A stretch of DNA of 64,000 bases from an uncultured Bacteroidia bacterium (GTDB taxonomy: Bacteria; Bacteroidota; Bacteroidia; Palsa-948): positions 10,138 through 74,137 of the forward strand of contig CAYZTB010000005.1 in NCBI GenBank assembly GCA_964481195.1, written 5' to 3'. Made by a program: the position numbers and the translations under genes. The notes beneath the pieces are model-generated. The model was not told the origin of the DNA. It worked only from the letters and a program-made list of their open reading frames with translations, and made no database searches. Shown piece by piece: positions 1 to 54,131 of the stretch (the first letter of the stretch is position 1; each line of letters starts with the position of its first letter).

Positions 1-2025
1 GGTACTTCCATCTTCGAAATTTATTTTAATGTTGTTAAAGTAGGGCAACCCAATGTCAAAATAATTATTGCCCGGACAAACAGCATATAAACCCATGGAG
101 CTCATAACATACCAGGCACTCATTTGTCCGCAATCCTCATTTCCTATTAATCCATCGGGTGTAGGTTTGTAAAAATCATCTAAGATTTGCTTTACACGAT
201 ATTTAGTTTTTTCAGGCTTCCCAATGTAGTTATATAGATAAGCCATGTGATGGCTGGGCTCATTGCCATGAGCATACTGACCGATTAACCCAGTAATATC
301 TGCTTGTTCCCTGCCCGTAGTTTTACTGCTAGTCGAAAATAGTTCGTCCATTTTTTTTTCAAACTTATCGGCACCTCCCATTAATTTAATCATTGCCGGA
401 ATATTCTGTGGGACAAAAAAAGTATACTGCCAACTGTTTCCTTCGGTGAAATTATTATCCACCCGTTTGGGGTCAAAATTGTATTGCCAGCCACCGTTGC
501 TACGAGGCTGCATAAATCCAGTTTCTGGATTAAAAATATTTTTCCAGGATTGTGCTCTGCTGCTATACACTTTATAGAGGCTGTCTTTCCCCAAGGCATT
601 GGCAAACTGGGCTATACACCAATCATCGTAAGCATATTCCAACGTTTTCGAAACACTTTCCGATTCATCTTCCACTTCCAGAAATCCATTTTTTCGATAG
701 GAATTCAGCCCACGGTAATTATTTAAATTGCTCATATCAACCATCGCTTGCATAGCAAGTTCAGCATCAAAATCATTTATTCCTTTTGCGTAAGCATCTG
801 CAATAACGCTTACTGCATGGTAACCTATCATACAATCTGTTTCATTCGAGGAAAGCTCCCAAACAGGCAGCCTCCCTGTTTGTTTATACATTTCTAAAAA
901 TGTTTTAATTATATCTAGCACTCGATTTTGCTCTATCAAAGTAAGCAGCGGATGCAATGCCCGAAAGGTATCCCATAAAGAAAAAACAGAATAATAGTTA
1001 AACCCTACTGCCTTGTAAATTTTATTGTCCATGCCTCTATAACTGCCGTCAATATCGGAAGCGATACTAGGATGAATCATGCAATGATACAGAGCCGAGT
1101 AAAAAGTTTTTAGCTTACCTACCTGATCGCTAGAAACTTCAATTTCAGAAAGCTGCTTATCCCACGTTGCAGCTGCATCATTTTTTGTTTTATCAAAATT
1201 CCAATCTGGGATTTCTGCTTCAAGATTTTTCCATGCCCCTACTTCGCTTACAGAAGATATTCCAACTTTTGCATAAATAGTTTTGCCGCTTGATGTGTTA
1301 AAAGAAAAAATGGCCTTAACATTTGAGCCTTCGTATAAATTATTTTTTAAGACCTTACCTCGTACAGCCTCTTCCTCGTCAATAAAAATTTCAAATTCAA
1401 AAGACTGAGAAAATTCGATGGCATAAAAAACTGTTTGCTGTTGCGCCCAGGCTTGACTAATTCTGCATCCTTCAAGTTTGTGATTACCCAGCACTTTTAC
1501 ATAAGAGCCTGGTAATGTTTTATCTCTGTGTGTAAGATCCAAAACAACATTTTTATTACCTGAATTATTAAACACATATTTGTGAAATCCAGCCCTAGTT
1601 GTAGAGGTTAATTCTACCTCAATGTTGTCGTCTTCCAACTTTACTGCATAATATCCTGCATTTGCTTTTTCATTTTTATGTAAAAACTTTGACGAATATA
1701 TTTTTTTATCTACCGAATGTTCGGATGTTGGCATGAGTAGGATGTCTCCCCAGTCGCTAACGCCTGTACCACTTAAATGGGTATGAGAAAACCCATAGAT
1801 AACAGAATCCGAATAATGATAGCCACTACAACCATCCCAACTTCCATCTATGCGAGTATCTGGTGACAGCTGCACCATCCCAAACGGAAGTGTAGCGCCC
1901 GGAAACGTATGTCCATGTCCGCCTGTGCCAGTCATCGGATCTACATACTGAGAATAGTTTTTTTGCTGAGCATTACACAACAGAAAATTAAGTAGCGAAA
2001 AGAAAATTAAAAAAAACTGTTTCAT
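1..2025 (-). CDS. Glycoside hydrolase family 92 alpha-1,2-mannosidase; N-terminus and signal peptide are in the window, C-terminus runs off the window start
   Basis: The ATG at 2025-2023 gives MKQFFLIFFSLLNFLLCNAQ (signal peptide). This is followed by YVDPMTGTGGHGHTFPGATLPFGMVQLSPDT, the classic GH92 N-terminal motif, and later by the YDDW core. The frame stays open for 675 codons down to position 1. It is missing from the ORF track only because no stop lies inside the window. Confidence 0.8.
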   Translation of the reverse strand, partial: MKQFFLIFFSLLNFLLCNAQQKNYSQYVDPMTGTGGHGHTFPGATLPFGMVQLSPDTRIDGSWDGCSGYHYSDSVIYGFSHTHLSGTGVSDWGDILLMPTSEHSVDKKIYSSKFLHKNEKANAGYYAVKLEDDNIEVELTSTTRAGFHKYVFNNSGNKNVVLDLTHRDKTLPGSYVKVLGNHKLEGCRISQAWAQQQTVFYAIEFSQSFEFEIFIDEEEAVRGKVLKNNLYEGSNVKAIFSFNTSSGKTIYAKVGISSVSEVGAWKNLEAEIPDWNFDKTKNDAAATWDKQLSEIEVSSDQVGKLKTFYSALYHCMIHPSIASDIDGSYRGMDNKIYKAVGFNYYSVFSLWDTFRALHPLLTLIEQNRVLDIIKTFLEMYKQTGRLPVWELSSNETDCMIGYHAVSVIADAYAKGINDFDAELAMQAMVDMSNLNNYRGLNSYRKNGFLEVEDESESVSKTLEYAYDDWCIAQFANALGKDSLYKVYSSRAQSWKNIFNPETGFMQPRSNGGWQYNFDPKRVDNNFTEGNSWQYTFFVPQNIPAMIKLMGGADKFEKKMDELFSTSSKTTGREQADITGLIGQYAHGNEPSHHMAYLYNYIGKPEKTKYRVKQILDDFYKPTPDGLIGNEDCGQMSAWYVMSSMGLYAVCPGNNYFDIGLPYFNNIKINFEDGST

Positions 2026-2030
2026 GCTAA

Positions 2031-3473
2031 TTATTTTTGAGCTGAGCCGTAATCAATACCCTGTTTTAAAAGAATGCCTCTAGCTTTCCATCCATAAAAA
2101 GCCAAATAAAGAAAACAACATACTCCTACCAAGTAGCTAGCTTGAATGCCTAGTCTATTATCTCCAGCAAGATATCCCTGCAGCCAGCTTACCAACCCTC
2201 CACCCATTATCATCATAATTAAAAAACTGGAGGCATCGTTTGTATGTTTTCCTAATCCCGCAATTGAAAGTGTAAAAATGCAAGGCCACATGGTAGAACA
2301 AAATAATCCAACACTGATGAAAGCATAAACGCTTACAATGCCATTAGCGAAAATACCAATGAGAAGAGCCAATATTCCCAGCGAAGAGAAGATGATTAAT
2401 TGCTTTGCCGGATTTCCTCTACTGAAAATATCAGCCACAATTATTACTACAATTAGTACGGAATAAATGTAGAAAGGTGCTAAATCATGATTAGCTAAAT
2501 AATTTACAAGTAGAAAAATCCCAAAAGCGGCATAGGGTAAAATAAAATTTAATATGTGCCTAACTCCTTTTTTTACACGGAAGGCACCCACTGCACTAGT
2601 CCACCTGCCAATCATTAGGCTGGCCCAGAAAAGAGAAACGTATGGAGCTACCTCCCCAGTTTGAGTACCTAGGTGCTGACGCATAAACTCTGGGAGATTA
2701 GAAGCTGTGGAAACTTCCACTCCCACATAAAGAAAAATCCCCAGCATACCAAGTCGTAGCTGAGGATAGCTTAACGCAGAAGAATAAGTTGAGGTGTTTT
2801 TTATTTTTTCGAATTGTAATTCCTTTGCTTCTTCCTGATGAATAATTTTATTGGGAATGGAGGAGAATTTGAAAACAATGGCAGCTACAAAAAATGCAAC
2901 TCCTAAAATTAGATAAGGGGTTTTTACAGATTCTAAATTTTCTAATTTTTGACCTGCCGCAAGAGAGCCAAATATCGCTAAGCTTACCAATACTGGACCG
3001 ATGGTAGTACCCACATTATTAATTCCTCCAGCCAAACTTAATCGCTGAGCACCCATTTTGGGATCTCCCATATTGATGGCTAGCGGATTTGCAGCCGTTT
3101 GTTGTAGCGAAAATCCTAGGCCTACAATGAACAAGCCGCATATTATAAAACCAAATGATTCTGTCATAGCAGCAGAATAAAAGAATAATGTGCCCAAAGC
3201 TGAGATAACTAAACCGATGGCAATTCCATTTTTATAGCCAATTCTGTTTAGTAAATTTTCTTTTGTCATCTTGGATATTAAAAAATAAATAATAGAGCCC
3301 ACGGTGTATGCCACATAAAAGGCTACCGAAATCATTTGACTTTGCCACTGTTCCAGCCCTAGTTTTTCCTTAAATACAGGAATAAGAATATCGTTACTGG
3401 CTGCAACAAATCCCCAAAAAAAGAATACAGATATAAGCGTTATAAAAGGTGAAATGGGGGGCTTGTTATTCAT
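2031..3473 (-). CDS. MFS sugar:H+ symporter, FucP/GluP (fucose/glucose/galactose/mannose) family
   Basis: About 12 TM helices. The N-terminal FFWGFVAASNDILIPVFK motif is typical of FucP/GluP permeases. A 5-nt gap to the downstream GH92 gene indicates an operon. Confidence 0.8.
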   Translation of the reverse strand: MNNKPPISPFITLISVFFFWGFVAASNDILIPVFKEKLGLEQWQSQMISVAFYVAYTVGSIIYFLISKMTKENLLNRIGYKNGIAIGLVISALGTLFFYSAAMTESFGFIICGLFIVGLGFSLQQTAANPLAINMGDPKMGAQRLSLAGGINNVGTTIGPVLVSLAIFGSLAAGQKLENLESVKTPYLILGVAFFVAAIVFKFSSIPNKIIHQEEAKELQFEKIKNTSTYSSALSYPQLRLGMLGIFLYVGVEVSTASNLPEFMRQHLGTQTGEVAPYVSLFWASLMIGRWTSAVGAFRVKKGVRHILNFILPYAAFGIFLLVNYLANHDLAPFYIYSVLIVVIIVADIFSRGNPAKQLIIFSSLGILALLIGIFANGIVSVYAFISVGLFCSTMWPCIFTLSIAGLGKHTNDASSFLIMMIMGGGLVSWLQGYLAGDNRLGIQASYLVGVCCFLYLAFYGWKARGILLKQGIDYGSAQK

Positions 3474-3485
3474 GAAGAATGAATA

Positions 3486-4487
3486 CTATCTGATAATTAA
3501 ATTTACAGGCAATGTTATGCGTGTTTCGCTTGTTTTCTTTTCATCAAGTGCTTGCAATAACAGTTTTGCAGATTCTACACCTATCCTTTCTACCGGTTGC
3601 GCAATAGCTGTAATCGGTGGTGAAAAATGTTCGAAAATAGGAATGTCATCAAATGAGCAAAGAGTAAGATTATGATTTAGCTTCAATTCTTTCATACAAG
3701 AATAGGCGGCTAAAGCAAGAACATTATTTACTGTGAAAATGGCATCTGCGAATATTTTTTTAAGATAAATATCCTGAATGATTTTTTTAATTTCATCTTT
3801 CATGTTATCAAAATCCACCTCAATAATTTTGTAAAATGCAATTGATTTTGCATTTCTTTTACATGCTTCGACAAAACCATCCTTTCTTTCTGTGATTGGA
3901 CTAATTAAAGAATTAGAAAAAGTAATCATCGCAATGTGTTTCTTTCCCAGATCGACTAAATGCTTGACCATTAGTTGAGCACCTAGTTTATTTTCGACTG
4001 TAATAGAAACAAATTTTTTGTCTCGGAAAGTTCTATCAATTAGAATAAGAGGCTTTCCAGATTTATTAATTTTATCGTAATTTTTTGAAGAAGCAAAACA
4101 AGAAGCAACAATAAGACCATCAACGTTCCAATTCAGTAGCGTATCAATTAAATTAGACTCCTTTTTCTCCTCCTCGTTTGTATTACATACAATTAGATGA
4201 TACCCCCTTTTAGAAACAATTTCCTCAATTGTTTTTGCAATTACCGAATAAAATGAATTTGAAATATCTGGTATGACGAGCCCAATGATGTTAGTTTTTC
4301 CTGTACGTAAGCTTCTTGCAAAACGATTGGGTTGATAATTCAACTTTTTTACAATAGCAATTACCTTTTTTTGAGTTTCCTTGCTAATCTTATGCTCATC
4401 TCCTTTTCCATTCAATACTAAAGAAACTAAGGTTTTTGATAACCCTAATTTCTCTGCAACCATCTGTAAAGAGACCTTTTTGGACAT
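3486..4487 (-). CDS. LacI-family transcriptional regulator; the internal Met at 4487 is the likely true start (the ORF track starts at 4556)
   Basis: MSKKVSLQMVAEKLGLSKTLVSLVLNGK is a LacI HTH, followed by a periplasmic-binding-protein fold. A TACCTTTG -7 element lies 12 nt upstream of the 4487 ATG. That element would fall inside the longer ORF version. Confidence 0.85.
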   Translation of the reverse strand: MSKKVSLQMVAEKLGLSKTLVSLVLNGKGDEHKISKETQKKVIAIVKKLNYQPNRFARSLRTGKTNIIGLVIPDISNSFYSVIAKTIEEIVSKRGYHLIVCNTNEEEKKESNLIDTLLNWNVDGLIVASCFASSKNYDKINKSGKPLILIDRTFRDKKFVSITVENKLGAQLMVKHLVDLGKKHIAMITFSNSLISPITERKDGFVEACKRNAKSIAFYKIIEVDFDNMKDEIKKIIQDIYLKKIFADAIFTVNNVLALAAYSCMKELKLNHNLTLCSFDDIPIFEHFSPPITAIAQPVERIGVESAKLLLQALDEKKTSETRITLPVNLIIR

Positions 4488-4497
4488 ATTAATTGAG

Positions 4498-4505
4498 CAA
4501 AGGTA
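4498..4505 (-). promoter_or_regulatory. Bacteroidetes sigma-A -7 element TAnnTTTG (TACCTTTG on the minus strand) for the lacI-MFS-GH92 operon
   Basis: Exact TAnnTTTG match 12 nt upstream of the lacI ATG at 4487. Confidence 0.45.
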
Positions 4506-4564
4506 GGAGAATCTAATTAAAATCACATAAGATTTGGTGGTAATAAAATATTTCATACATTTGA

Positions 4565-4599
4565 CTAAATCAATTTAGTTGTTAATTAAATCGATTTAA
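4565..4599. promoter_or_regulatory. Two related palindromes, candidate LacI-family operators. CTAAATCaATTTAG is at 4565-4578 and TTAAATCGATTTAA (perfect, 14 bp, central CG) is at 4586-4599, with centres 21 bp apart.
   Basis: Read directly from the sequence. They sit in the divergent region between the lacI operon and the adhesin gene at 4631. A central CG within an AT-rich palindrome is typical of LacI-family operators. Confidence 0.4.
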
Positions 4600-4630
4600 A
4601 TACACTAGCTAACCCTAACACAACCATACA

Positions 4631-7540
4631 ATGAAAAACTGCATTGGGGAAAATTTCAAAGGAGCTTCGGCTATTACTTTATTACTTTTTTTTTCCTTCT
4701 TTAATTTGAATGGGCAAGTTTGTATTATTTCCCCAATAAATATTACAGCAAACACCACCCCTGCAACCTGTATTATTGGAGGATCAGCAACCGTTAATAT
4801 CACAAATGGTTTTCCACCCTACACCTATTCTTGGTTTCCTAATGTAAGCAGCACTAAATCAGCCAGCAATCTTGCGCCTGGCACCTATTCCGTTAATGTA
4901 ATGGACACGCGATGTCATTCTCAACCAGGTCAGGAACTGGTTGTGAATGGAAATTTTAGTAGTGGCAATACCGGCTTTACAAGTGGCTATACGTATTGCA
5001 ACACCTCTCAATGTCTATTCACTGAAGGATATTATAGTGTTGGATCCAATCCTCAGTTCTATCACTCAAACTTTTTTGGCACCGACCATACAACCGGAAA
5101 CGGGAACTTTATGATTATTAACGGGAACACCATTCAGGGCATTTCCATTTGGTGCCAAACTGTTAATGTTACTCCAAACACTAACTATATATTTTCAACC
5201 TGGCTTAGCGCCATGAATACAACCAGCCCTGCACAACTGCAATTTTCAATAAATGGAACAGCAATAGGGAATAATTTTTTTGCACCTTCCACTACTAATA
5301 GTTGGATTCAGTTTTGCACCGTATGGAATTCTGGCTCTAATACAACTGCAAATATTTGCATCGATAATCAAAGCATTATCCTGGCTGGAAATGATTTTGG
5401 GCTAGATGATATTTCATTTCGCCCCTGCTCTCCTGCTACTTTAACATTCACAATTGCACCTCCTCCACCTGTAGTAAGCGCAGCAAATTCTTCCAACGCG
5501 GTATGTGGAGGATTTGGAACAGCTAATGTTGCTGCTAGCGGAGGAACTCCAACCTATTCCTACTCTTGGAGTAACGGACAAAGTACTTCTTCAGTGGCCG
5601 GGCTGACAACAGGAATATATTCTGTCACAGTAACAGATGGTGCTGGCTGTACATCCACTAACACTGTATCAATTTTAAATACCGGAAGCCTCACAGCAAC
5701 TGCTGGACCAAATACAACAATTTGCTCCGGCTCATCGCAGTCTCTTATTCTCAATGCATCAGGTGGCAGTAATTATTTATGGTCCACTTCGGCTACAACC
5801 AGCTCTATCTCTGTTTCTCCTGCTACTACTACATCGTACTCTGTTATCGTGTCAAAAGGCAACTGCGCAGATACGGGATATGTTACAGTAACCGTTAATC
5901 CACAACCTACGGCAATCCCATCAGGCACAAATATTTGTTTTAATAATCAAACTAATTTTACTGATCTCTCAACAGGAAACAATTCAATTTCTAATTGGGC
6001 CTGGGATTTTGGCGATGGAAATAACTCCAGCATTCAAAACCCCGGGCATACTTATTCAAGCGCAGGACCTTTTACTGTTACATTAATTGTTACAAATAAT
6101 TTTGGATGTAAAGACACAAATTCAGTTGTAGTAAACGTATTTCCACTGCCGCTGGCCAATTTCACCTTCTCAAATGCTTGTTTTGGAAATCCCGTTTCAT
6201 TTACTAACTTATCAAGCGTTTCATCTGGCAGCATCACTGCATGGAGCTGGAATTTTGGTGATCCGAATTCAGGAACAAACAATATTTCAAATACGACATC
6301 CCCAACACATATTTTTTCTGCCGCAGGAAATTACGTTGTTGTTCTTACCGTAACATCCAGCGATGGATGTCAAAACACATTGAATCTTTCAATTGCAATT
6401 AGCTCGCCTCCAGTGGCAATGTTTACGAACATTTCTAGTTGCTTGAATAATCCAACTAGCTACACCAACAACTCTACATCACCTGCTATTGATCCCATAA
6501 ATGCATGGACTTGGAATTTTGGGGATGGCTCCACTAATTCGATATTGCAAACTCCTTCACATACGTACGCAACAGCTGGCACATTCACTACTACATTACT
6601 AGTAACAACGATTGCTGGGTGTAAAGACACCACTACTAACATCGTTACAGTATATAATTTGCCGGTAGTTAACTTTTCTGATTCAGCAAAGGGATGTTCT
6701 CCAGTTTGTGGAAAATTTACTGATCTTTCCTCCGCTACAAGTGGAACTATAAACTCCTGGCTGTGGAGTTTTCCAGGCGGGAATCCTTCCACATCAACCT
6801 CTTCCTCTCCATCCGTTTGCTGGACATCTCCCGGTTCTTATGCCGTACAATTGGTTGTCACTTCTTCAGTAGGTTGCACTGATTCTGTGATTAAACATCA
6901 ATACGTTCAGGTTTACCCCTGGCCTACTGCTGATTTCTGCGTAGCTCCGGATAAAGCACCTGCCACTAATCCAGTATTTAATTTCTGCGATTTATGGTCA
7001 AAGGATGTGGTTCAATGGACTTGGAATTTTGGAGATAACACAACAGATGTCACAAACACAGACCCAACACATTCTTACTTATCTGCAATTACGGGAAATG
7101 ATTTTTACAATTTCAATGTTTGCTTGCAAGTTCAAAATCAATACGGCTGCTGGGATACTACTTGCAAAACTGTGGAATTAATTCCCGAATATGTGTTCTA
7201 TATACCTAATACATTTACGCCAAACTCGGATATGACCAATGATTTTTTCTTTGGGAAAGGAAGGGGAATTAAGGAATATAGCATTTGGTTATTTGACCGA
7301 TGGGGAAATCAAATATGGGACTGCCATATTTCCGAAAATAATAAAGACCTAGATAACAATGGGAAGGATGGACTTTCATCACTTTGCCAATGGAATGGAA
7401 ATGTGGAAGGAGGCGGCATGGATATGGGTGGAAACACCAACAAACTTGCTCAAGAAGATGTGTATGTGTGGAAAGTAAATCTTACTGATATTTTTGATCG
7501 CAGGCATACATACGTTGGGCATGTAAACGTAATAAGGTAG
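4631..7540 (+). CDS. Secreted multidomain adhesin (paralogue A): signal peptide, two SprB repeats, a CBM4/9/22-like beta-sandwich, about five PKD domains, and a T9SS type-B C-terminal sorting domain
   Basis: The SprB-repeat pattern is GGSATVNITNGFPPYTYSW...GTYSVNVMD and ASGGTPTYSYSWSNGQ...GIYSVTVTDGAGC. The CBM-like stretch is LVVNGNFSSGNTGFTSGY...DDISF. The PKD pattern is WAWDFGDGNNSSIQNPGHTY. The type-B CTD is YIPNTFTPNSDMTNDFFFGKGRGIKEYSIWLFDRWGNQIW. Confidence 0.8.
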   Translation: MKNCIGENFKGASAITLLLFFSFFNLNGQVCIISPINITANTTPATCIIGGSATVNITNGFPPYTYSWFPNVSSTKSASNLAPGTYSVNVMDTRCHSQPGQELVVNGNFSSGNTGFTSGYTYCNTSQCLFTEGYYSVGSNPQFYHSNFFGTDHTTGNGNFMIINGNTIQGISIWCQTVNVTPNTNYIFSTWLSAMNTTSPAQLQFSINGTAIGNNFFAPSTTNSWIQFCTVWNSGSNTTANICIDNQSIILAGNDFGLDDISFRPCSPATLTFTIAPPPPVVSAANSSNAVCGGFGTANVAASGGTPTYSYSWSNGQSTSSVAGLTTGIYSVTVTDGAGCTSTNTVSILNTGSLTATAGPNTTICSGSSQSLILNASGGSNYLWSTSATTSSISVSPATTTSYSVIVSKGNCADTGYVTVTVNPQPTAIPSGTNICFNNQTNFTDLSTGNNSISNWAWDFGDGNNSSIQNPGHTYSSAGPFTVTLIVTNNFGCKDTNSVVVNVFPLPLANFTFSNACFGNPVSFTNLSSVSSGSITAWSWNFGDPNSGTNNISNTTSPTHIFSAAGNYVVVLTVTSSDGCQNTLNLSIAISSPPVAMFTNISSCLNNPTSYTNNSTSPAIDPINAWTWNFGDGSTNSILQTPSHTYATAGTFTTTLLVTTIAGCKDTTTNIVTVYNLPVVNFSDSAKGCSPVCGKFTDLSSATSGTINSWLWSFPGGNPSTSTSSSPSVCWTSPGSYAVQLVVTSSVGCTDSVIKHQYVQVYPWPTADFCVAPDKAPATNPVFNFCDLWSKDVVQWTWNFGDNTTDVTNTDPTHSYLSAITGNDFYNFNVCLQVQNQYGCWDTTCKTVELIPEYVFYIPNTFTPNSDMTNDFFFGKGRGIKEYSIWLFDRWGNQIWDCHISENNKDLDNNGKDGLSSLCQWNGNVEGGGMDMGGNTNKLAQEDVYVWKVNLTDIFDRRHTYVGHVNVIR

Positions 7541-7597
7541 TTAATCATTTATATTAAAAATACGAAACGCATAAAATATATAACTAAATATTAAACC

Positions 7598-8839
7598 ATG
7601 AAATTATTTCAAATCCTGTTTGTACTTATCATTTTCTCTTCTATCTGCAAAGCAGATACCACCATTACTGCATTTAACAATGTGCATCAAAAATTTGGAG
7701 GAGGTCTCGATACAAGAACCGTTGTAGATACATTTTTGTTCCCCACTAATTTAGATTCATCTAGTGCAATTAAAATGCACCTTACTTTGAATTGCCCTGC
7801 TGGTGGATGTGACCCATGGGATCGATTTGCGAAAATCCAAGCGTTTCACAACAACGAATGGTTTGAAATTGGTAGATACATGACTCCCTATAAAAAATCC
7901 TGCGGCTGGATATTGGATGTATCGGATTATCGTTCTATGCTTAGCGATACGGTCATCTTAAAATCGTTTATTGATACATGGGTAAATCCAGGCTGGCTTG
8001 TGCATATTGATTTTGAATTTATAAGCGGAACTCCCGCAAATAAAATAATAAAGGTCGAAAATCTTTGGGTAAGCGATAATGTAGTGTATGGCGACAACTC
8101 ACAACCTATTACACTACCGGCAATTACTAAAACAATAGATGCAAGTGCTACACTTGTAAAATTAAGAATGGTAAATACCGGTCATGGACAAGGTAACACA
8201 GATAATGCAGCAGAGTTCTCACAGAAAACTCATAACATACTGGTAAATGGAAGTACTGCTTTTTCACAATTACTATGGAGATCTAATTGCGGTTCAAACC
8301 CATGTTCGCCACAAAGCGGCACCTGGCAGTATAATCGAGCAGGATGGTGTCCTGGAGCAGATGTAATCCCAAACAATTATGATATAACTTCAAAAATTAC
8401 CCCAGGTCAGCCTGCTACGTTAGGGTACCAACTTCAAAACTATACGAATCAATGTAGTCCTAATAACCCCAGTTGTGTTACTGGCAGTACGTGTACCGAT
8501 TGTAAGTATAATTACAACGGACACACTGAACCTCATTATAAAATTTCAGCACAACTTATCTCTTACTTAAGCAACGCAACTGGGATTTCGGGATTACAAA
8601 AAGAAATTGCTCTATCCATATTTCCAAATCCTACAAATGGTTTATTTACCGTAAATCTATCAGAAAAAAACTTACTTGTTACGTTAGCTATTTTTAACGT
8701 GATTGGAAAAAGAATATGGCTTGAAGATTTATTGCCTGGGAACAATTACATAGACCTTTCCACACTGCCTAAAGGAATATATATTTTGTCTTTTAATTCT
8801 GAAAATTCTAATAGCATAAAAAAGCTCGTAATTGAGTAA
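7598..8839 (+). CDS. PNGase F (peptide-N4-(N-acetyl-beta-glucosaminyl)asparagine amidase F) homologue with a T9SS type-A C-terminal sorting domain
   Basis: Signal peptide. The blocks CDPWDRFAKIQAFHNNEWFEIGRYMTPY, ILDVSDYRSMLSD...DTW...IDFEFISGTP and NRAGWCPGADV align with Elizabethkingia PNGase F (CDEWDRYANVYV..GEWYEIGRFITPY; EIDVTDFKSLLSG; DRAGWCPGMAV). The C-terminus LSIFPNPTNGLFTVNL...KGIYILSF...KKLVIE is a Por secretion tail. Confidence 0.8.
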   Translation: MKLFQILFVLIIFSSICKADTTITAFNNVHQKFGGGLDTRTVVDTFLFPTNLDSSSAIKMHLTLNCPAGGCDPWDRFAKIQAFHNNEWFEIGRYMTPYKKSCGWILDVSDYRSMLSDTVILKSFIDTWVNPGWLVHIDFEFISGTPANKIIKVENLWVSDNVVYGDNSQPITLPAITKTIDASATLVKLRMVNTGHGQGNTDNAAEFSQKTHNILVNGSTAFSQLLWRSNCGSNPCSPQSGTWQYNRAGWCPGADVIPNNYDITSKITPGQPATLGYQLQNYTNQCSPNNPSCVTGSTCTDCKYNYNGHTEPHYKISAQLISYLSNATGISGLQKEIALSIFPNPTNGLFTVNLSEKNLLVTLAIFNVIGKRIWLEDLLPGNNYIDLSTLPKGIYILSFNSENSNSIKKLVIE

Positions 8840-8930
8840 TAATATTATTACTTACATCATTGATTCGCATTCAAAAAAACCATTAAAAAATACATATCAT
8901 TCGATATTGTATTCTTCCTACTTTTGATGC

Positions 8931-9842
8931 ATGTTATTATTAACTCCTACCAACTTTCCTGATTACGAACTAATAGACTGCGGTGATTTTGAAAAGTTGG
9001 AACGCTTTGGTAAATACATCACCATTCGCCCAGAGCCACAGGCAGTTTGGAGCAAAAAACTTTCAGCTCATGAATGGGAAAAAACAGCACATGTAAAGTT
9101 TGTTCCAAAAACTAGCAGTGCTGGCGATTGGAAAAAGTTTAAAGAGATGCCAGACCGCTGGACTATGCAGTATCAAGTCCAAAGTCTAAAGTCTAAAGTT
9201 GACCCTTCTACCTTAACCCTTAAGCTTTCCCTAACCTCATTTAAACATGTTGGAGTTTTTCCTGAGCAGGCAGTAAACTGGAATTATATTTACAACAACA
9301 TACGTGCGCTCTCCTCCCCTTCTGGGGGAGGTCGGGAGGGGGTGCCAAAATTCTTAAACCTCTTTGCTTATACTGGAGCAGCCTCTCTAGCTGCAAAAGC
9401 AGCAGGCGCAGATGTAACGCATCTGGATTCCATTAGGCAAGTAGTTACATGGGCTAGAGAAAACATGGAGCTTAGCGGACTAAAAGATATACGCTGGCTG
9501 GTAGAAGATGCTTTAAAATTTGTGAAGCGAGAAGTAAAGCGAGGTAATAAATACCATGGAATAATTTTGGACCCTCCTGCATACGGCAACGGACCAGATG
9601 GTGAAAAATGGAAGTTGGAAGATAACATCAAAGAAATGATGGATCTTGTTTTACAACTGCTTGATGAGAAAGAACATTTTATGATTTTAAATGCTTACTC
9701 CTTGGGCTTCTCCCCTATTGTTATTGAAAATTTATTGAAAGGTTTTGCAAAAAATAATCTTGAAACCGGAGAACTTTACCTTCAGTCAAAAACTGATTTA
9801 AAACTTCCTTTAGGGGTTTTTGGTAGGTTCAGAAATTTTTAA
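8931..9842 (+). CDS. Class I SAM-dependent (rRNA) methyltransferase, RlmI/RlmK-like PF10672 family
   Basis: The SAM-binding block is LNLFAYTGAASLAAKAAGADVTHLDS, with DPPAY downstream. It overlaps the convergent gene at 9810 by 33 nt. Confidence 0.65.
   Translation: MLLLTPTNFPDYELIDCGDFEKLERFGKYITIRPEPQAVWSKKLSAHEWEKTAHVKFVPKTSSAGDWKKFKEMPDRWTMQYQVQSLKSKVDPSTLTLKLSLTSFKHVGVFPEQAVNWNYIYNNIRALSSPSGGGREGVPKFLNLFAYTGAASLAAKAAGADVTHLDSIRQVVTWARENMELSGLKDIRWLVEDALKFVKREVKRGNKYHGIILDPPAYGNGPDGEKWKLEDNIKEMMDLVLQLLDEKEHFMILNAYSLGFSPIVIENLLKGFAKNNLETGELYLQSKTDLKLPLGVFGRFRNF
9311..9346 (+). repeat. GC-rich hairpin-forming insert (CTCCTCCCCTTCTGGGGGAGGTCGGGAGGGGGTGCC) inside the methyltransferase CDS, in frame (encodes SSPSGGGREGVP)
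   Basis: Read directly from the sequence. The CCTCCCC/GGGGAGG inverted repeat and the GGGAGGGGG run are anomalous against the 35% GC surroundings. Confidence 0.5.
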
Positions 9843-11735
9843 ACCCATTTTTTCATTTAGTTTTTCCAGCGCTTTGGGCGCTAAAGGATGACCAAGCTTT
9901 TCTAGTCTTATGTAATCAAGCTTAGCGCTGTCTAACTTTCCAACCACTTCATACACCCAACCGCGATTGAGTAAACAGATCTGACTTTTAGGATTAAGCT
10001 TCAAGCCAGAGCTAAAATCATTAATTGAATTTGCATAATCCTGATTAGTAAAATATGCCATGCCTCTCTTAATATAAGAATAGTCAGTAGCTGTATCACT
10101 TGTAATTTGAATCGAATACCCAATAATTTCATTTTGTAATTGCACTTTTCGCTTAGCATCCTCTTCAAAGTTTTTATCTACTTCGCCACCCATTTTTTTG
10201 TATTGCTGAATATCTATCAAAGCATTTTCAAATTTTCTCGAAAAATAAAAAGCCCTAGCTCTATCTTTATAAAACCCTGTATTTCCCGGCTCTAAAGTAA
10301 TAGCTACATTAAAACTTTCAATGGCTTTATCATACTGTTTCATCCCTAAATACACGGCTCCTTTATTAGCATACGGAATGGCGCTGTTTGTTCTTTTTTC
10401 AATGTAGGCATCGTACCATTTAATAGCTTCTTCGGGCAAATTATTGACTACACAAGCTCTACCAAGTATGATGTAATAATAAATGGAATGTGGAGCCTCT
10501 TCAATGCCTGTTGTTGCCAGCTGGTATGGGTTTTTGTAAACATCGGATCTAATAAAAGTTTTAACGAAAAACAGCAACGCTATAATCGAAAAAAATATCC
10601 AAGTAATTATTTTCTTATTAAAGAAATCAATCTTGGAAAAATTTATTTGCGAAAGCATAATAAAAACTCCTACCATAGGCAGATAGGCTCTCTGCTCGAA
10701 GTGCTCAGCACCGCTACGCATGGAACCTGCAATTAGAGGAATAATAATAAATGTGAAAAACCAAAATATCCCAAAGATTGTCAATCGCTTATTGCTGAAT
10801 TTAAAATAAAATACAATTGTTATTAGCAAAGCAATAACAAAATAAAATGGAAGCATGCTTGTTTCTGCCACCGTAGGTGCAACCGACTGATTAATCGGCA
10901 AAATGATTTTTCCAAAATACATTACTGTGGCTAAGGCCATATCTTGAAAAACATTGAAAAAACTAAGATTGTCTGCAGGTAAATAAACTGGAATTATCTG
11001 GTGACGAATAAAAAACCAAACACCAACAATAGCAACAAGTATTGCAAACAAATAAATAATTTCTTTTCGAATGGTCTTCTTGTTTATCAAGATATAATAA
11101 CCCGTAAAAAGTATCGGCAACACAATGGCATTCTCTTTTGTAAAAAGCGCAAGCACAGTAAATAATGTACAAAACAATAAGTTTTTAATTTTGAAGTTTT
11201 CTAGATAATTTAGAAAGAAAATAAATACAGAAAACGAAAAAATGGCCAGCAAAACATCCACCCTTCCCGGCACAAAAGCGACTGATTGAACATGCAAGGG
11301 ATGAACAGCAAATAAAAGTGAAAAACCAAAAGCAATATTCCTTTTAAGCCCAAGTTTTTGAAAAACAACAAAAAGCAGCACAGAAGCAATGGCATGATAA
11401 ACTATATTAAAAAAGTGAAAAACCATGGGGTTACTTCCACCTATCATAACATCGGGCATATAGGACACTACCCAAATAGGTCTGTAGTAGTTATCGAGTA
11501 TTGCCTCCGAAAAAAATACCTTCAAACTTGAAAGGTCACGATACAGATCAATCCTTTTTACAATAAGCCATTCATCATCCAGCGGAGAAAACGCGAAACT
11601 TAAAGTAGGCAGATATACAATTACAGCTGCTAGGATAATAAACAGATAGTTCCAATATTTCTGCACAACTTCAATAAAATTAAAAGAAGAAGTAAGATTT
11701 TTGTTTTCCAAATCCATAGGGTAAAAGTAAAACAA
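9810..11735 (-). CDS. PMT/TMTC-like (GT-C fold) multi-pass membrane protein with C-terminal TPR repeats; paralogue of 17223 and 19287
   Basis: About 10 N-terminal TM helices. An acidic loop motif FSPLDDEW and a YRP motif appear as in O-mannosyltransferase-like TMTC/PMT proteins. The C-terminal roughly 250 aa are TPR repeats. Confidence 0.55.
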   Translation of the reverse strand: MFYFYPMDLENKNLTSSFNFIEVVQKYWNYLFIILAAVIVYLPTLSFAFSPLDDEWLIVKRIDLYRDLSSLKVFFSEAILDNYYRPIWVVSYMPDVMIGGSNPMVFHFFNIVYHAIASVLLFVVFQKLGLKRNIAFGFSLLFAVHPLHVQSVAFVPGRVDVLLAIFSFSVFIFFLNYLENFKIKNLLFCTLFTVLALFTKENAIVLPILFTGYYILINKKTIRKEIIYLFAILVAIVGVWFFIRHQIIPVYLPADNLSFFNVFQDMALATVMYFGKIILPINQSVAPTVAETSMLPFYFVIALLITIVFYFKFSNKRLTIFGIFWFFTFIIIPLIAGSMRSGAEHFEQRAYLPMVGVFIMLSQINFSKIDFFNKKIITWIFFSIIALLFFVKTFIRSDVYKNPYQLATTGIEEAPHSIYYYIILGRACVVNNLPEEAIKWYDAYIEKRTNSAIPYANKGAVYLGMKQYDKAIESFNVAITLEPGNTGFYKDRARAFYFSRKFENALIDIQQYKKMGGEVDKNFEEDAKRKVQLQNEIIGYSIQITSDTATDYSYIKRGMAYFTNQDYANSINDFSSGLKLNPKSQICLLNRGWVYEVVGKLDSAKLDYIRLEKLGHPLAPKALEKLNEKMGLKISEPTKNP

Positions 11736-11782
11736 CTCTTCAATGCATAACCTACGTTAACCTACAATTAACTATTCCATGC

Positions 11783-11813
11783 AATAAAAGAGGGCGATTA
11801 AAAAAATCGCCCT
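11783..11813 (-). terminator. Rho-independent terminator downstream of tRNA-Pro: stem AGGGCGA/TCGCCCT, followed by a T-run on the minus strand
   Basis: Inverted repeat 11791-11797/11807-11813. The minus-strand tail reads CTTTTATTGC. Confidence 0.55.
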
Positions 11814-11818
11814 CTCTG

Positions 11819-11892
11819 TCGGGTAGACAAGATTTGAACTTGCGACCTCTCCCACCCCAAGGGAGTGCGCTACCGGGCTGCGCCACTACCCG
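11819..11892 (-). tRNA. tRNA-Pro (anticodon GGG), 74 nt, CCA not encoded
   Basis: A manual cloverleaf fits. Acceptor CGGGTAG/CTACCCG, D-stem GCGC/GCGC, anticodon stem CTCCC/GGGAG with loop TTGGGGT (GGG plus G37), T-stem GCAAG/CTTGT with loop TTCAAAT, discriminator A. Confidence 0.8.
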
Positions 11893-11959
11893 AACTAAAC
11901 TCTCGTTTGCCTCTATGAATTTTATAGATTTGCAAAAGTAAAAATAATCACTTGTCTGG

Positions 11960-14458: not shown

Positions 14459-14459
14459 T

Positions 14460-15437
14460 ATGACTAATTATAATAAAATATTATCTATGAAATATTTTTC
14501 AATATTGGTTTTTGCAGTAGGTCTCTTTACCACTTCATGCCAAAAAGAAATACAGGTCGACTTACCAACTTACCCGCCAAAAATTGTTGTAGATGGTAAA
14601 ATTGAACCCGGGGTTCCACCTTATGTGATACTCACCTATAATATGCCTTACTTTGGATCAACAGATGTTAACGCAATCCAAAACTCATTCATACACAATG
14701 CATCTATTACCGTTTCGGACGGCTCAAACACTGCCACATTAGTTGAATACTGCTCTAAATCACTGCCCGATTCACTTCTGCCATTAATCGCCTCTTTCAC
14801 CGGCATCGATCCGCTTACCTTAAAAAATTTCGACTACTGCATTTACACAACCTTAAACCCAGCCCTCTTTGGTCAATCTGGAAAAACCTATACGTTAAAG
14901 ATTTTGGCTAATGGAAAAAATCTCACTTCCACTACATCTATCTTACCTGCAATACCCTTAGATACAGCATGGATCCGCTATGAAAAAGTGAATAAAACCG
15001 GAGATTCCCTTGGATTTATGTGGGGACACCTAACCGAGCCCGGCAATACATACAACGCATACCGCTGGTTGACTAAAAGAAATACCAAAGACTATTCTTT
15101 TATTGCTCCTCCGGGCGCAGCATCCGATGATAAATATTATAATGGGCAAAGCTTTGACTTCGCCTATAGCAGAGGATCTGCACAAAATTCAGACGCGAAG
15201 GATGACAATAACGAGGAACGAGGATATTTCAAATCGGGCGATACAGTTGTTATAAAATTTTGTACTATTGAACGAGCAACTTATAGTTTTTACCGAAGCT
15301 TGGATATCATACTAAATAATAACGGAAACCCTTTTGCTTCACCTTCATCAGTTGAATCAAATATTTACCCTAAAGAAGAAAGCTTGGGTATTTGGTGCGG
15401 CTATGGTGTTGCAACACATACTGTAATTTGTAAATAA
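14460..15437 (+). CDS. DUF4249-family lipoprotein, the usual partner of CarbopepD_reg-type TonB receptors
   Basis: The lipoprotein signal is LFTTSC. KIVVDGKIEPG is typical of DUF4249. A 1-nt gap from the upstream receptor gene indicates co-transcription. Confidence 0.55.
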   Translation: MTNYNKILSMKYFSILVFAVGLFTTSCQKEIQVDLPTYPPKIVVDGKIEPGVPPYVILTYNMPYFGSTDVNAIQNSFIHNASITVSDGSNTATLVEYCSKSLPDSLLPLIASFTGIDPLTLKNFDYCIYTTLNPALFGQSGKTYTLKILANGKNLTSTTSILPAIPLDTAWIRYEKVNKTGDSLGFMWGHLTEPGNTYNAYRWLTKRNTKDYSFIAPPGAASDDKYYNGQSFDFAYSRGSAQNSDAKDDNNEERGYFKSGDTVVIKFCTIERATYSFYRSLDIILNNNGNPFASPSSVESNIYPKEESLGIWCGYGVATHTVICK

Positions 15438-15454
15438 AATAATAAATACTTTTT

Positions 15455-16396: not shown

Positions 16397-16462
16397 ATTT
16401 CTTATCGATTTTTTTACTAGTTTTAATGCTATAAATATGGCATTAATTTTGCAAATTTTACA

Positions 16463-46407: not shown

Positions 46408-46455
46408 TAATTATTGTTTAAAAAAATAGTACTCAAAAAAAGTAATCCGCAATAA

Positions 46456-49518: not shown

Positions 49519-49533
49519 TTTTTTGTATAAATT

Positions 49534-52155: not shown

Positions 52156-52166
52156 CTTTGTTTAAT

Positions 52167-53432: not shown

Positions 53433-53433
53433 T

Positions 53434-54015: not shown

Positions 54016-54045
54016 AAGACGTTAATATTACAAAAGGTTGCCTTA
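54016..54045 (-). promoter_or_regulatory. ECF-type promoter on the minus strand: TAAGGCAACC-N15-CGTCTT followed by a conserved AGTACA box; a candidate autoregulatory promoter of the sigma operon
   Basis: The minus-strand reading is ATAAGGCAACCTTTTGTAATATTAACGTCTTATGAGTACAGAT. The identical architecture recurs at 56790-56820. GGAAC/CGTC-like spacing is typical of ECF sigma promoters. Confidence 0.5.
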
Positions 54046-54131
54046 TTACCTATCCAAAATCAATGATTATTACAAAAAAAGACGAAAATTCATAAATACT
54101 TGAAAATAAATTAAATAAAACACAATACTTC

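What the first reader, a model, noticed from the sequence alone, without database searches (positions are those of the whole stretch)
1..8839. Compact N-glycan-type harvesting block without SusC/SusD: LacI, FucP-like MFS, GH92, divergent CBM/SprB adhesin, and PNGase F with a T9SS CTD
The PNGase F homologue (7598-8839) shows the diagnostic blocks of the Elizabethkingia enzyme. Unlike that enzyme it ends in a T9SS type-A sorting domain, so it is predicted to be surface-attached or secreted via T9SS. Upstream is adhesin A, whose head contains a CBM-like galactose-binding-type sandwich next to SprB repeats. On the other strand is a LacI-controlled operon encoding a FucP/GluP-type hexose symporter and a GH92 alpha-mannosidase. 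Together these suggest capture of glycoproteins, release of N-glycans at the surface, mannose trimming, and MFS import rather than TonB-dependent PUL import. Whether A is functionally part of this block is unclear. It also belongs to the adhesin family described above.
Basis: partly seen in the sequence, partly recalled or inferred. Interest (0 to 1): 0.6.

Follow-up and report, generated by a model that had tools for sequence, protein, structure and literature searches.

The report
LacI-controlled N-glycan scavenging locus without SusC/D
An uncultured Bacteroidota bacterium carries a small sugar-repressor-controlled gene block that probably strips N-linked sugar chains off proteins outside the cell; it is a trimmed, rearranged version of glycan-harvesting loci already known in this phylum, not a new kind of system.

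Summary
Window 1-8839 encodes, on the minus strand, LacI, a FucP/GluP-family MFS transporter and GH92. On the plus strand it encodes a 969-aa adhesin (SprB repeats, five PKD domains, type-B T9SS CTD) and a 413-aa PNGase F homologue with a type-A T9SS CTD.

The PNGase keeps the catalytic Asp and Glu. The adhesin head is a confidently modelled CBM4/16/22-like jelly roll. No SusC/D lies within 8 kb left or 3 kb right.

The N-glycan reading is supported by comparison:
- A 71%-identical relative inserts a ROK kinase, glycosylasparaginase, CutC and GH2 beta-mannosidase between the MFS and GH92 genes.
- More distant PNGase-CTD genes sit in LacI-SusC-SusD-lectin-PNGase loci with GH92, GH2, GH85 and the same MFS.

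Two 14-bp LacI-type palindromes lie just downstream of a Bacteroidetes-type promoter facing the adhesin. They are present only in relatives that carry the adhesin, so adhesin and PNGase are probably LacI targets.

"MFS import instead of TonB-dependent import" is not supported. GH92 looks periplasmic, so an outer-membrane importer must be encoded elsewhere. PNGases with T9SS CTDs are already published (PNGaseL, 2025). Verdict: ordinary in kind, a new variant in layout.

The parts
1..2025 (-). GH92 alpha-mannosidase, N-terminal 675 of 947 aa. The gene runs off the left edge of the window. The missing C-terminus carries an F5/8-type-C-like domain and no T9SS CTD.
   Evidence: Pfam and TIGR01180. 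(full gene L001:11449-14292); the C-terminus matches the C-terminal domain of GH20 6Q63 at E 6e-14 and F5_F8_type_C at E 1e-5. BT3130 -1 subsite residues G92, D353, W390 and M400 and the GNEPSHH motif are conserved. The N-terminus MKQFFLIFFSLLNFLLCNA|QQ reads as a Sec signal (inspection).
2031..3473 (-). MFS transporter of the FucP/GluP/NagP (fucose-hexose symporter) family; inferred inner-membrane monosaccharide importer.
   Evidence: Homologues (29-37% identity) sit in PNGase loci L036, L037, L041 and L042. It is followed by a ROK kinase in L091.
3486..4487 (-). LacI-family repressor. The ORF extends to 4556, but the conserved start is the ATG at 4487.
   Evidence: Relatives align from this Met.
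4498..4505 (-). Candidate Bacteroidetes -7 box TACCTTTG for lacI-MFS-GH92, 10 nt before the lacI ATG.
   Evidence: L086 and L091 have TACCTTTA at the same place (read). Inference only.
4533..4563 (+). Candidate Bacteroidetes promoter facing adhesin A: -33 TTTG (4533-4536), a 19-nt spacer, then -7 TACATTTG (4556-4563).
   Evidence: The same TAnnTTTG lies directly 5' of operator box 1 in L086 (TACCTTTG) and L091 (TATCTTTG). The consensus comes from established knowledge of Bacteroidetes promoters.
4565..4578 (.). Operator box 1, CTAAATCAATTTAG (LacI-type palindrome).
4586..4599 (.). Operator box 2, TTAAATCGATTTAA (perfect 14-bp palindrome with central CG), 21 bp from box 1.
   Evidence: These are the only two matches in the 64-kb window within 1 mismatch.
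4631..7540 (+). Adhesin A: signal peptide, SprB repeat, CBM-like head, SprB repeat, five PKD domains, type-B T9SS CTD.
   Evidence: Orthologues lie next to lacI in L086 and L091.
4928..5434 (+). Head domain of adhesin A (aa 100-268): beta-jelly-roll of the CBM4/9/16/22 type. Ligand unknown.
7202..7537 (+). C-terminal region of adhesin A with a CHU_C / type-B T9SS sorting domain (borderline score).
   Evidence: 27.9 bits against cutoff 27. (TIGR04131 20.3 bits against cutoff 35). It is 50-55% identical to the C-termini of four other adhesins in the window.
7598..8839 (+). PNGase F-type peptide-N4-(GlcNAc)asparagine amidase: signal peptide, two-jelly-roll catalytic core with a Cys-rich C-terminal extension, type-A T9SS CTD.
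   Evidence: TM 0.82-0.83 normalised to 1PGS/1PNF..
8618..8836 (+). Type-A T9SS C-terminal sorting domain of the PNGase (aa 341-413).
   Evidence: The model matches the NucA CTD in the T9SS complex 8GLK_D at TM 0.88.

Best explanation
The block is a two-unit, LacI-governed locus for scavenging N-glycans from glycoproteins or glycopeptides.

Unit 1 (plus strand: adhesin A, then PNGase after 57 bp with no terminator). Both proteins are exported by the T9SS.
- Adhesin A is a long PKD stalk carrying a CBM-like jelly-roll head. It is inferred to hold glycosylated material at the cell surface.
- The PNGase F-type amidase cuts the GlcNAc-Asn bond and releases whole N-glycans.

Unit 2 (minus strand: lacI-MFS-GH92).
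- GH92 is a Sec-exported, probably periplasmic, Ca-dependent exo-alpha-mannosidase of the alpha-1,3-type clade, with a discoidin-like C-terminal domain. It removes mannose from imported glycans.
- The MFS carries the released monosaccharide (mannose and/or GlcNAc) across the inner membrane.
- LacI, in the absence of a glycan-derived effector, binds the two palindromes just downstream of the adhesin promoter and blocks unit 1.

The outer-membrane uptake step and the rest of core degradation (beta-mannosidase, hexosaminidase, kinase) are not in the block. They must be encoded elsewhere.

Shown: gene identities, folds, catalytic residues, sorting domains, conserved palindromes and synteny. Inferred: substrate, localisation, co-transcription, LacI binding, and a capture role for the adhesin.
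For: 1. The PNGase is a real PNGase F-type enzyme. E 1e-38 to 1PNF. The AF2 model has TM 0.83 to 1PGS. The W74-D75-R76 motif, E206, W128, R247 and W250 are invariant or nearly so in 42 homologues. Asp at the E118 position matches BF0811, which acts like PNGase F (PMC9522356).
2. T9SS export. The type-A CTD scores above cutoff. PNGaseL and PNGaseDo have the same architecture (PMC12381499).
3. Relative L091 (LacI, MFS and GH92 each 70-71% identical) has LacI-MFS-ROK-Asparaginase_2-CutC-GH2 beta-mannosidase-GH92. The Asparaginase_2 and GH2 proteins carry signal peptides. This is an N-glycan core and glycoasparagine operon.
4. Among 80 genome loci of the PNGase-CTD family, 29 carry SusC, SusD, another TonB-dependent receptor, GH2, GH92, this MFS or this LacI within 10 kb. 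L041, L051 and L083 are LacI-SusC-SusD-(Laminin_G_3 lectin with CTD)-PNGase. L036 and L042 add MFS plus a roughly 1000-aa GH92. L037 adds GH85.
5. The same palindrome type (CTAAAACGATTTAG or CTAAACGGATTTAG) lies just upstream of lacI in L051, L083 and L041.
6. In the window, L086 and L091, the promoter-like TAnnTTTG plus the two boxes are conserved in otherwise diverged spacers.
7. In L092 and L093 (LacI 61% identical) there is no adhesin and no PNGase, and the palindromes are absent.
8. The adhesin head has a CBM fold. In the PUL-type loci a T9SS-exported lectin occupies the equivalent partner position.
9. The nearest solved GH92 structures are BT3130 and the plant-N-glycan alpha-1,3-mannosidase 7ZGM, which is itself encoded next to a PNGase.
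Against: - Linkage is not conserved in the nearest PNGase relatives. At 57-62% identity the gene is an orphan among housekeeping genes or sits next to unrelated T9SS proteins.
- L091 keeps the adhesin and the operon but has no PNGase. L092 and L093 keep the operon alone. Adhesin plus PNGase is therefore an accessory insertion into a conserved MTase|LacI-MFS-GH92-GlnS backbone.
- No outer-membrane importer, beta-mannosidase, hexosaminidase or kinase lies in the window.
- No operator was found for lacI-MFS-GH92 itself. The boxes lie roughly 70-110 bp upstream of the lacI promoter.
- The ligand of the CBM-like head is unknown. Its homologues are uncharacterised small surface proteins.
- Promoters, operators, localisation and activity are all in silico.
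Confidence: 0.6

Rival explanations
1. Two independent neighbours. LacI-MFS-GH92 is a self-contained mannoside or hexose operon of the conserved backbone. The adhesin-PNGase pair is an unrelated accessory island that happened to insert beside it. In this reading the PNGase serves mainly to strip glycans so that secreted peptidases can digest proteins, and the glycans are not the nutrient.
For: L092 and L093 have MTase|LacI-MFS-GH92-GlnS with no adhesin, no PNGase and no palindromes. L091 lacks the PNGase. The closest PNGase homologues are orphans. GH92 within 10 kb of a PNGase occurs in only 4 of 80 loci, which is near the rate expected for a multi-copy family (my estimate).
Against: LacI-type palindromes sit in front of the adhesin and next to lacI in all three relatives that have the adhesin. 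The same motif and a homologous LacI head the SusC-SusD-lectin-PNGase operons. MFS and the long GH92 recur together in PNGase loci of other lineages.
Confidence: 0.22
2. Adhesin A is an ordinary SprB-like gliding or attachment adhesin with no role in glycoprotein capture. Only PNGase, GH92, MFS and LacI would form the glycan system.
For: The window holds four more adhesins with the same PKD stalk and CTD (50-55% identity) but different heads, so this is a variable family. The head's ligand is unknown and its homologues are uncharacterised. L091 keeps the adhesin without a PNGase.
Against: The head orthologue (64-68% identical) stays next to lacI in three relatives. The operators lie between its promoter and its start codon. 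A T9SS lectin occupies the analogous position in the PUL-type loci. The head has a CBM fold.
Confidence: 0.3
3. The PNGase acts on the bacterium's own, or its neighbours', N-glycosylated T9SS cargo rather than on eukaryotic glycoproteins. It would serve processing or recycling of surface glycoproteins.
For: In Cytophaga hutchinsonii, T9SS cargo CTDs carry PNGase F-sensitive N-glycans (PMC11611037). In this clade the PNGase gene often lies beside large T9SS proteins (window, L086, L007, L009, L089). Adhesin A has 30 N-x-S/T sequons. A PMT_2-type glycosyltransferase lies 1 kb downstream.
Against: LacI sugar-repressor control, and the recurrent association with SusC/D, GH2, GH85, GH92 and transporters, point to nutrient acquisition. 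The sequon count is expected in an Asn/Ser/Thr-rich protein. Adhesins are so numerous here that adjacency is weak evidence. No oligosaccharyltransferase was seen.
Confidence: 0.06

Closest known systems
PNGase F of Elizabethkingia meningoseptica (PDB 1PNF/1PGS)
   Same: Same two-jelly-roll fold (TM 0.83, 28% identity). The W-D-R motif with catalytic Asp, the catalytic Glu206, W120, R248 and W251 equivalents are all conserved.
   Different: E118 is Asp, W207 is Phe and W191 is His. The C204-C208 disulfide is absent. A Cys-rich roughly 40-aa C-terminal extension replaces residues 288-314. A T9SS type-A CTD is added.
PNGaseL (Flavobacterium akiainvivens) and PNGaseDo (Draconibacterium orientale), PMC12381499
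   Same: PNGase F-superfamily enzymes from Bacteroidota with C-terminal T9SS signals. PNGaseL was shown to be active on high-mannose, complex, plant and invertebrate N-glycans. His rather than Trp in the 'cyan loop' is the general pattern, and it is seen here (H196).
   Different: Their genomic context was not described in the parts of the paper I read.
Bacteroides group-1 PNGases (BF0811, PDB 3KS7) and the Phocaeicola massiliensis PNGase-GH92 pair (7ZGN/7ZGM), PMC9522356
   Same: Asp at the E118 position, as in group 1, whose member BF0811 behaves like PNGase F. A PNGase encoded beside a GH92 of the same clade as the window's GH92 (7ZGM, E 1e-154). Some of those PNGase genes are orphans or lie in loci with SusC/D, GH92 and GH130, as seen here across relatives.
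   Different: The Bacteroides enzymes lack a T9SS CTD and are predicted periplasmic or lipoproteins. Sequence similarity to them is much lower (E 5e-14 to 8e-8). There is no adhesin partner and no LacI operator arrangement.
Bacteroidota polysaccharide utilization loci for N-glycans, for example the high-mannose N-glycan PUL of B. thetaiotaomicron (own knowledge), and the PNGase PULs found here in L036, L041, L042, L051 and L083
   Same: A surface deglycosylating enzyme, a surface glycan-binding protein, periplasmic exo-mannosidases, an inner-membrane sugar transporter and a dedicated regulator.
   Different: There is no SusC/SusD pair. The position between lacI and the PNGase is held by a stalked T9SS type-B adhesin instead of SusC-SusD-lectin. 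The enzyme set is minimal (one GH92).
BT3130 / BT3965 clade of GH92 (PDB 6F8Z, 6F91), PMC5930347
   Same: E 1.5e-167 to BT3130. The -1 subsite residues are conserved. The clade is described as alpha-1,3-specific or multi-specific including alpha-1,3.
   Different: The window enzyme has an extra roughly 200-aa C-terminal region, with an F5/8-type-C-like domain related to the C-terminus of GH20 6Q63. Its linkage specificity is untested.

Membership tests
PNGase F superfamily (Pfam N-glycanase_N/_C) | Two eight-stranded antiparallel beta-jelly-roll domains. | tested here: met
   N-glycanase_C 74 bits (cutoff 25) and N-glycanase_N 24.4 bits (cutoff 22.4). The AF2 model aligns to 1PGS/1PNF with target-normalised TM 0.82-0.83 and rmsd 3.1 A.
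PNGase F superfamily (Pfam N-glycanase_N/_C) | Catalytic Asp60 and Glu206 (PNGase F numbering) and the aromatic-Asp-basic motif. | tested here: met
   W74-D75-R76 and E206 are present and invariant in alignments A1 and A3.
PNGase F superfamily (Pfam N-glycanase_N/_C) | An acidic residue at the Glu118 position, which determines core-fucose tolerance. | tested here: met
   D126 here. Asp is the group-1 Bacteroides state, with PNGase F-like specificity.
PNGase F superfamily (Pfam N-glycanase_N/_C) | Amidase activity releasing intact N-glycans. | not testable with these tools
   Needs a recombinant enzyme assay.
T9SS type-A cargo | A C-terminal Por_Secre_tail / TIGR04183 domain together with an N-terminal Sec signal. 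| tested here: met
   52.8 bits (cutoff 27) and 50.6 bits (cutoff 23). The CTD model matches 8GLK_D at TM 0.88. The signal peptide MKLFQILFVLIIFSSICKA|D was judged by inspection.
T9SS type-A cargo | T9SS machinery present in the same genome. | tested here: inconclusive
   A PorP/SprF gene lies on the same contig and there are several type-B CTD adhesins. Core genes (SprA, PorK-N) were not seen in the sequence available.
Polysaccharide utilization locus (PUL) in the strict sense | An adjacent SusC-like and SusD-like gene pair. | tested here: not met
   There is none in window 1-11900 nor in the 8 kb left of the window. The TonB-dependent receptor at 11960-14458 is paired with DUF4249. It belongs to a backbone conserved in L093 without a PNGase.
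Polysaccharide utilization locus (PUL) in the strict sense | Co-located CAZymes and a dedicated regulator. | tested here: met
   GH92, PNGase and LacI.
GH92 exo-alpha-mannosidase | GH92 N-terminal and catalytic domains with conserved -1 subsite residues. | tested here: met
   TIGR01180 618 bits against cutoff 250. BT3130 G92, D353, W390 and M400 equivalents and the GNEPSHH motif are conserved.
GH92 exo-alpha-mannosidase | Linkage specificity (alpha-1,2, 1,3, 1,4 or 1,6). | not testable with these tools
   Only clade proximity to BT3130, 7ZGM and BT3965 is available.
LacI/GalR repressor with palindromic operator | An N-terminal HTH plus a periplasmic-binding-protein-like effector domain. | tested here: met
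   Pfam LacI 40.7 bits, Peripla_BP_1 70 bits, Peripla_BP_3 66.8 bits and Peripla_BP_4 58.6 bits.
LacI/GalR repressor with palindromic operator | A 14-20 bp palindromic operator with a central CG near regulated promoters. | tested here: met
   Two sites at 4565-4578 and 4586-4599 are the only ones in 64 kb. They are conserved in L086 and L091. The related motif lies next to LacI homologues in L041, L051 and L083. Binding itself is not testable here.
FucP/GluP/NagP (FHS) subfamily of MFS | A score above an equivalog or subfamily cutoff, allowing a substrate to be assigned. | tested here: not met
   GluP 177 bits (cutoff 203), FucP 173 bits (cutoff 280) and NagP 156 bits (cutoff 625). Family-level relation only (3O7Q, E 8e-33). 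The substrate is unassigned.
SprB-type T9SS type-B adhesin | SprB repeats and a type-B (CHU_C / TIGR04131) C-terminal domain. | tested here: inconclusive
   SprB 30.7 bits (cutoff 28). CHU_C 27.9 bits (cutoff 27), but TIGR04131 20.3 bits (cutoff 35).

The most novel reading that the evidence does not exclude
In this clade the T9SS-exported PNGase may be partnered with large T9SS adhesins because it acts on bacterial N-glycoproteins. These would be the organism's own or its neighbours' N-glycosylated T9SS cargo, of the PNGase F-sensitive type reported for Cytophaga hutchinsonii. The LacI-gated adhesin-PNGase unit would then remodel or recycle the cell-surface glycoprotein coat rather than forage eukaryotic glycans. 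A milder novel reading is that a stalked T9SS type-B adhesin with a CBM head functionally replaces the SusC/D-associated binding apparatus, giving a Sus-independent N-glycan foraging mode.
Probability: 0.06. Interest if true: 0.75.

Novelty: new variant of a known kind. Interest (0 to 1): 0.38.

Why it matters
N-glycan foraging has been worked out almost entirely in gut Bacteroides and a few pathogens. This locus and its relatives show three things:
- PNGase F-type enzymes with T9SS sorting domains are widespread in environmental Bacteroidota, Ignavibacteria and Marinimicrobia.
- They recur with a recognisable gene set: SusC/D or other TonB-dependent receptors, a T9SS lectin, GH92, GH2, GH85, an FHS-type MFS and a LacI with a conserved operator.
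- The set can be reduced and rearranged, with a T9SS adhesin in the place of SusC/D-lectin.

The practical gains are modest. They are a candidate operator motif for finding the rest of the regulon, a candidate glycan-binding module (the adhesin head family), and another PNGase for specificity screening.

Tried and rejected
- **SusC/D just off the window edge.** I fetched the same contig (L001-L005). GH92 is followed by GlnS, a 226-aa DUF4412-like protein, SecA and PorP/SprF. There is no SusC/D.
- **Missing core enzymes.** I searched the window for ROK, glycosylasparaginase, CutC and GH2 homologues of L091. None were found.
- **TonB-dependent receptor at 11960-14458 as the importer.** It is only 22-30% identical to receptors near other PNGase genes. 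It belongs to a backbone that L093 keeps without a PNGase. Rejected as specific evidence, but kept as a candidate.
- **Operator motif upstream of PNGase genes in the 80 genome loci.** There is no enrichment: one odd hit, against a background of 13 per 1.07 Mb. Only L089 shows one.
- **Sigma-70 promoter scan.** 44 hits against 39.9 expected. Uninformative, as expected for Bacteroidota. The terminator scan gave 4 hits against 7.9 expected, none of them between adhesin A and the PNGase.
- **Metagenome scan with LacI.** It returned a single locus, L091.
- **LacI homologues at 42-44% identity (L094, L095).** Their contexts have no glycan genes, so the subfamily boundary lies above that level unless the operator is present.
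- **PNGase_F-II N-terminal domain hit in the 226-aa flanking protein.** E 7e-4, below cutoff. Relatives are annotated DUF4412. Not pursued.
- **Organism name.** The cluster look-up gave no names.

Full report
**What is in the sequence**

Window 1-8839 holds five genes in two divergent groups.

On the minus strand:
- A LacI-family regulator at 3486-4556 as an ORF. The conserved start is the ATG at 4487.
- An MFS transporter at 2031-3473. It scores as GluP/FucP/NagP-like, but below every equivalog cutoff.
- A GH92 gene that starts at 2025 and runs off the left edge.

On the plus strand:
- A 969-aa protein, 'adhesin A', at 4631-7540. It has two SprB repeats, five PKD domains and a borderline type-B T9SS C-terminal domain.
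- After a 57-bp AT-rich spacer with no terminator-like hairpin, a 413-aa PNGase F homologue at 7598-8839 with a clear type-A T9SS sorting domain.

**The PNGase**

- It aligns to PNGase F (1PNF) over residues 8-287 at E 1e-38.
- An AlphaFold model built on 42 homologues superposes on 1PGS/1PNF with target-normalised TM 0.82-0.83. Its tail superposes on a T9SS-bound CTD, 8GLK_D, at TM 0.88.
- The W-D-R motif with the catalytic Asp (D75), the catalytic Glu (E206) and the W120, R248 and W251 equivalents are invariant or nearly so in the family.
- The Glu118 position is Asp. This is the state of the Bacteroides group-1 enzymes, one of which (BF0811) behaves like PNGase F (PMC9522356).
The enzyme looks active.

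The architecture is not rare. The protein search returned 799 clusters, nearly all with the T9SS CTD. The genome scan found 338 loci in Flavobacteriales, Cyclobacteriaceae, Bacteroidales, Ignavibacteria and Marinimicrobia MAGs. T9SS signals on PNGases have been published: PNGaseL and PNGaseDo, with PNGaseL biochemically characterised (PMC12381499).

**The adhesin head**

- Pfam gives only a sub-threshold CBM_4_9 hit (E 0.026).
- Homologues of the 169-aa head exist as roughly 220-aa stand-alone proteins. They end in T9SS CTD, PEP-CTERM or MYXO-CTERM signals.
- A model built on 30 of them has pLDDT 95.8.
- It matches CBM16, CBM22 and CBM4 jelly rolls with Foldseek probability 1.0 and TM 0.57-0.64.

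The 'CBM-like sandwich' is real as a fold. Its ligand is unknown. The other four adhesins in the window share the stalk and CTD but not this head.

**GH92 and what lies beyond the window edge**

The same contig was recovered from public metagenomes.
- GH92 is 947 aa. Its extra C-terminal region resembles the C-terminal domain of the N-glycan-active GH20 6Q63 and, weakly, an F5/8 type C domain. It has no T9SS CTD.
- Its N-terminus reads as a Sec signal, so a periplasmic location is the simplest inference.
- Its nearest solved relatives are BT3130, the plant-N-glycan alpha-1,3-mannosidase 7ZGM (encoded next to a PNGase) and BT3965. This clade is described as mainly alpha-1,3. It is not the alpha-1,2 clade of BT3990.
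- The -1 subsite residues are conserved.
- Downstream come GlnS, a 226-aa protein, SecA and PorP/SprF. There is no SusC/SusD.

**Comparative evidence for the N-glycan theme**

Five close relatives of the locus were found. L086, L091, L092 and L093 are compared here with the window.
- L091 (LacI, MFS and GH92 each 70-71% identical) has MTase - adhesin 2 - 499-aa gene - adhesin A - LacI - MFS - ROK kinase - Asparaginase_2 (glycosylasparaginase type) - CutC - GH2 beta-mannosidase - GH92 - GlnS. It has no PNGase. The asparaginase and GH2 carry signal peptides; the kinase does not.
- That operon is a periplasmic N-glycan core and glyco-asparagine finishing pathway, with monosaccharide import and phosphorylation. 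It gives the window's shorter LacI-MFS-GH92 operon its most likely meaning.
- L086 (PNGase 74%, LacI 71%) repeats LacI | adhesin A - PNGase.
- L092 and L093 (LacI 61%) have only MTase | LacI-MFS-GH92-GlnS. In L093 the TonB-dependent receptor-DUF4249-Pyr_redox-MORN genes that lie at 11960-17194 in the window follow directly.
- So LacI-MFS-GH92 is a conserved backbone. Adhesin A, with or without the PNGase, is an accessory insertion between the methyltransferase and lacI.

In more distant genomes the PNGase-CTD gene sits in recognisable PULs.
- L041, L051 and L083: LacI-SusC-SusD-(Laminin_G_3 lectin with T9SS CTD)-PNGase.
- L036: GH92-MFS divergent from SusC-SusD-PNGase-lectin.
- L042: SusD-PNGase-lectin-CutC-GH2-GH92-MFS.
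- L037 and L072 (Cyclobacteriaceae): SusC/D, MFS, GH92, GH2 and SSS followed by the PNGase, then L037 continues with GH92, GH85, GH92 and ROK. L072 has a sulfatase in place of GH85, and no MFS or ROK was detected there.

Overall 29 of the 80 loci carry at least one of these uptake or CAZyme families within 10 kb. The nearest PNGase relatives (57-62% identity) are orphans or lie beside other T9SS proteins.

**Regulation**

- The only two matches in the 64-kb window to TAAATCGATTTA within one mismatch lie 21 bp apart between lacI and adhesin A. They are CTAAATCAATTTAG (4565-4578) and TTAAATCGATTTAA (4586-4599).
- Both boxes are conserved in the otherwise diverged spacers of L086 and L091.
- Immediately 5' of box 1, on the adhesin strand, all three have a TAnnTTTG motif with a TTTG about 20 nt upstream. 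This is the Bacteroidetes -7/-33 consensus, which I take from established knowledge.
- The boxes would therefore lie between the transcription start and the adhesin start codon.
- lacI has its own -7-like box 10 nt before the ATG at 4487.
- L092 and L093, which lack the adhesin, also lack the palindromes.
- LacI homologues (33-41% identical) heading the SusC-SusD-lectin-PNGase operons have the same motif type just upstream: CTAAAACGATTTAG or CTAAACGGATTTAG.

I infer that this LacI subfamily gates the surface capture and deglycosylation unit. Adhesin A, and by probable co-transcription the PNGase, would then be LacI targets rather than targets of an ECF sigma factor. No binding was tested, and no operator was found for lacI-MFS-GH92 itself.

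- An inner-membrane MFS cannot stand in for outer-membrane uptake.
- With a periplasmic GH92, released glycans of more than 1 kDa must cross the outer membrane. Relatives use SusC/D for this.
- Here the importer, the beta-mannosidase, the hexosaminidase and the kinase are absent from the 64-kb window. They must be elsewhere in the genome.
- CAZyme clusters co-regulated with a distant PUL are a known arrangement (PMC9522356).
- The block is therefore incomplete rather than demonstrably Sus-independent.

**Comparison with what is known, and novelty**

- The enzyme is a new member of the PNGase F superfamily, of the already noted T9SS-CTD type.
- PNGase-GH92 neighbourhoods and N-glycan PULs are known.
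- Not described, to my knowledge, are three things. First, the conserved LacI operator-promoter arrangement. Second, the substitution of a stalked, CBM-headed T9SS type-B adhesin for the SusC-SusD-lectin segment. Third, the breadth of PNGase-CTD loci in Ignavibacteria and Marinimicrobia.
- I rate it a new variant of a known kind, of moderate interest.

The most novel reading not excluded is that the PNGase acts on bacterial N-glycosylated T9SS cargo, as reported for C. hutchinsonii (PMC11611037). I give it about 6%.

Noticed in passing
window 4928-5434 (adhesin A head) and proteins P0121-P0190: The head is a member of an uncharacterised roughly 170-aa CBM4/9/16/22-like module. Elsewhere it forms roughly 220-aa stand-alone proteins ending in three different sorting signals: T9SS CTD, PEP-CTERM and MYXO-CTERM. 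These occur in Bacteroidota, Acidobacteriota and myxobacteria-like sources. It appears to be a surface-display module shared between sorting systems.
   Followed up: partly
L001:15986-16666 (about 4.3 kb left of the window start, after GlnS): [quoted passage not shown] Its counterparts in L092 and L093 are annotated DUF4412.
   Followed up: partly
L089:9912-9925: An orphan PNGase gene (61% identical) among housekeeping genes has the palindrome TTAAAATGATTTAA about 89 bp upstream of its start. This hints at control in trans by the same LacI type. It is a single case and was not seen in the 80 genome loci.
   Followed up: partly
window 8931-17194 compared with L093:918-7231: The methyltransferase, TonB-dependent receptor, DUF4249, Pyr_redox_2 and MORN genes are a conserved backbone that in L093 abuts lacI directly. 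The PMT_2/TPR gene (window 9810-11735) is absent from L093, so it is a second insertion relative to that relative.
   Followed up: partly
window 42499-56745: Four further large adhesins share adhesin A's PKD stalk and C-terminal region at 50-55% identity but have different N-terminal heads.
   Followed up: no
loci L015-L038 (Marinimicrobia / Neomarinimicrobiota MAGs): A 560-aa form of the PNGase-CTD protein recurs next to a TonB-dependent receptor, a GDSL esterase, an unannotated 287-aa protein, an SSS transporter and a GH2 beta-mannosidase. This suggests an N-glycan uptake locus in a phylum without SusC/D-type PULs.
   Followed up: partly
L036:11202-12680, L042:11627-13123, L051:7183-8913, L083:7372-8928: In the PUL-type loci the PNGase is always paired with a roughly 500-aa Laminin_G_3 (ConA-like) protein carrying its own T9SS type-A CTD. 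It is a candidate T9SS-delivered surface glycan-binding protein.
   Followed up: partly
window 4631-7540: Adhesin A contains 30 N-x-S/T sequons in 969 aa. This is probably just its Asn/Ser/Thr-rich composition. It is noted because T9SS cargo N-glycosylation has been reported in Cytophaga hutchinsonii.
   Followed up: no
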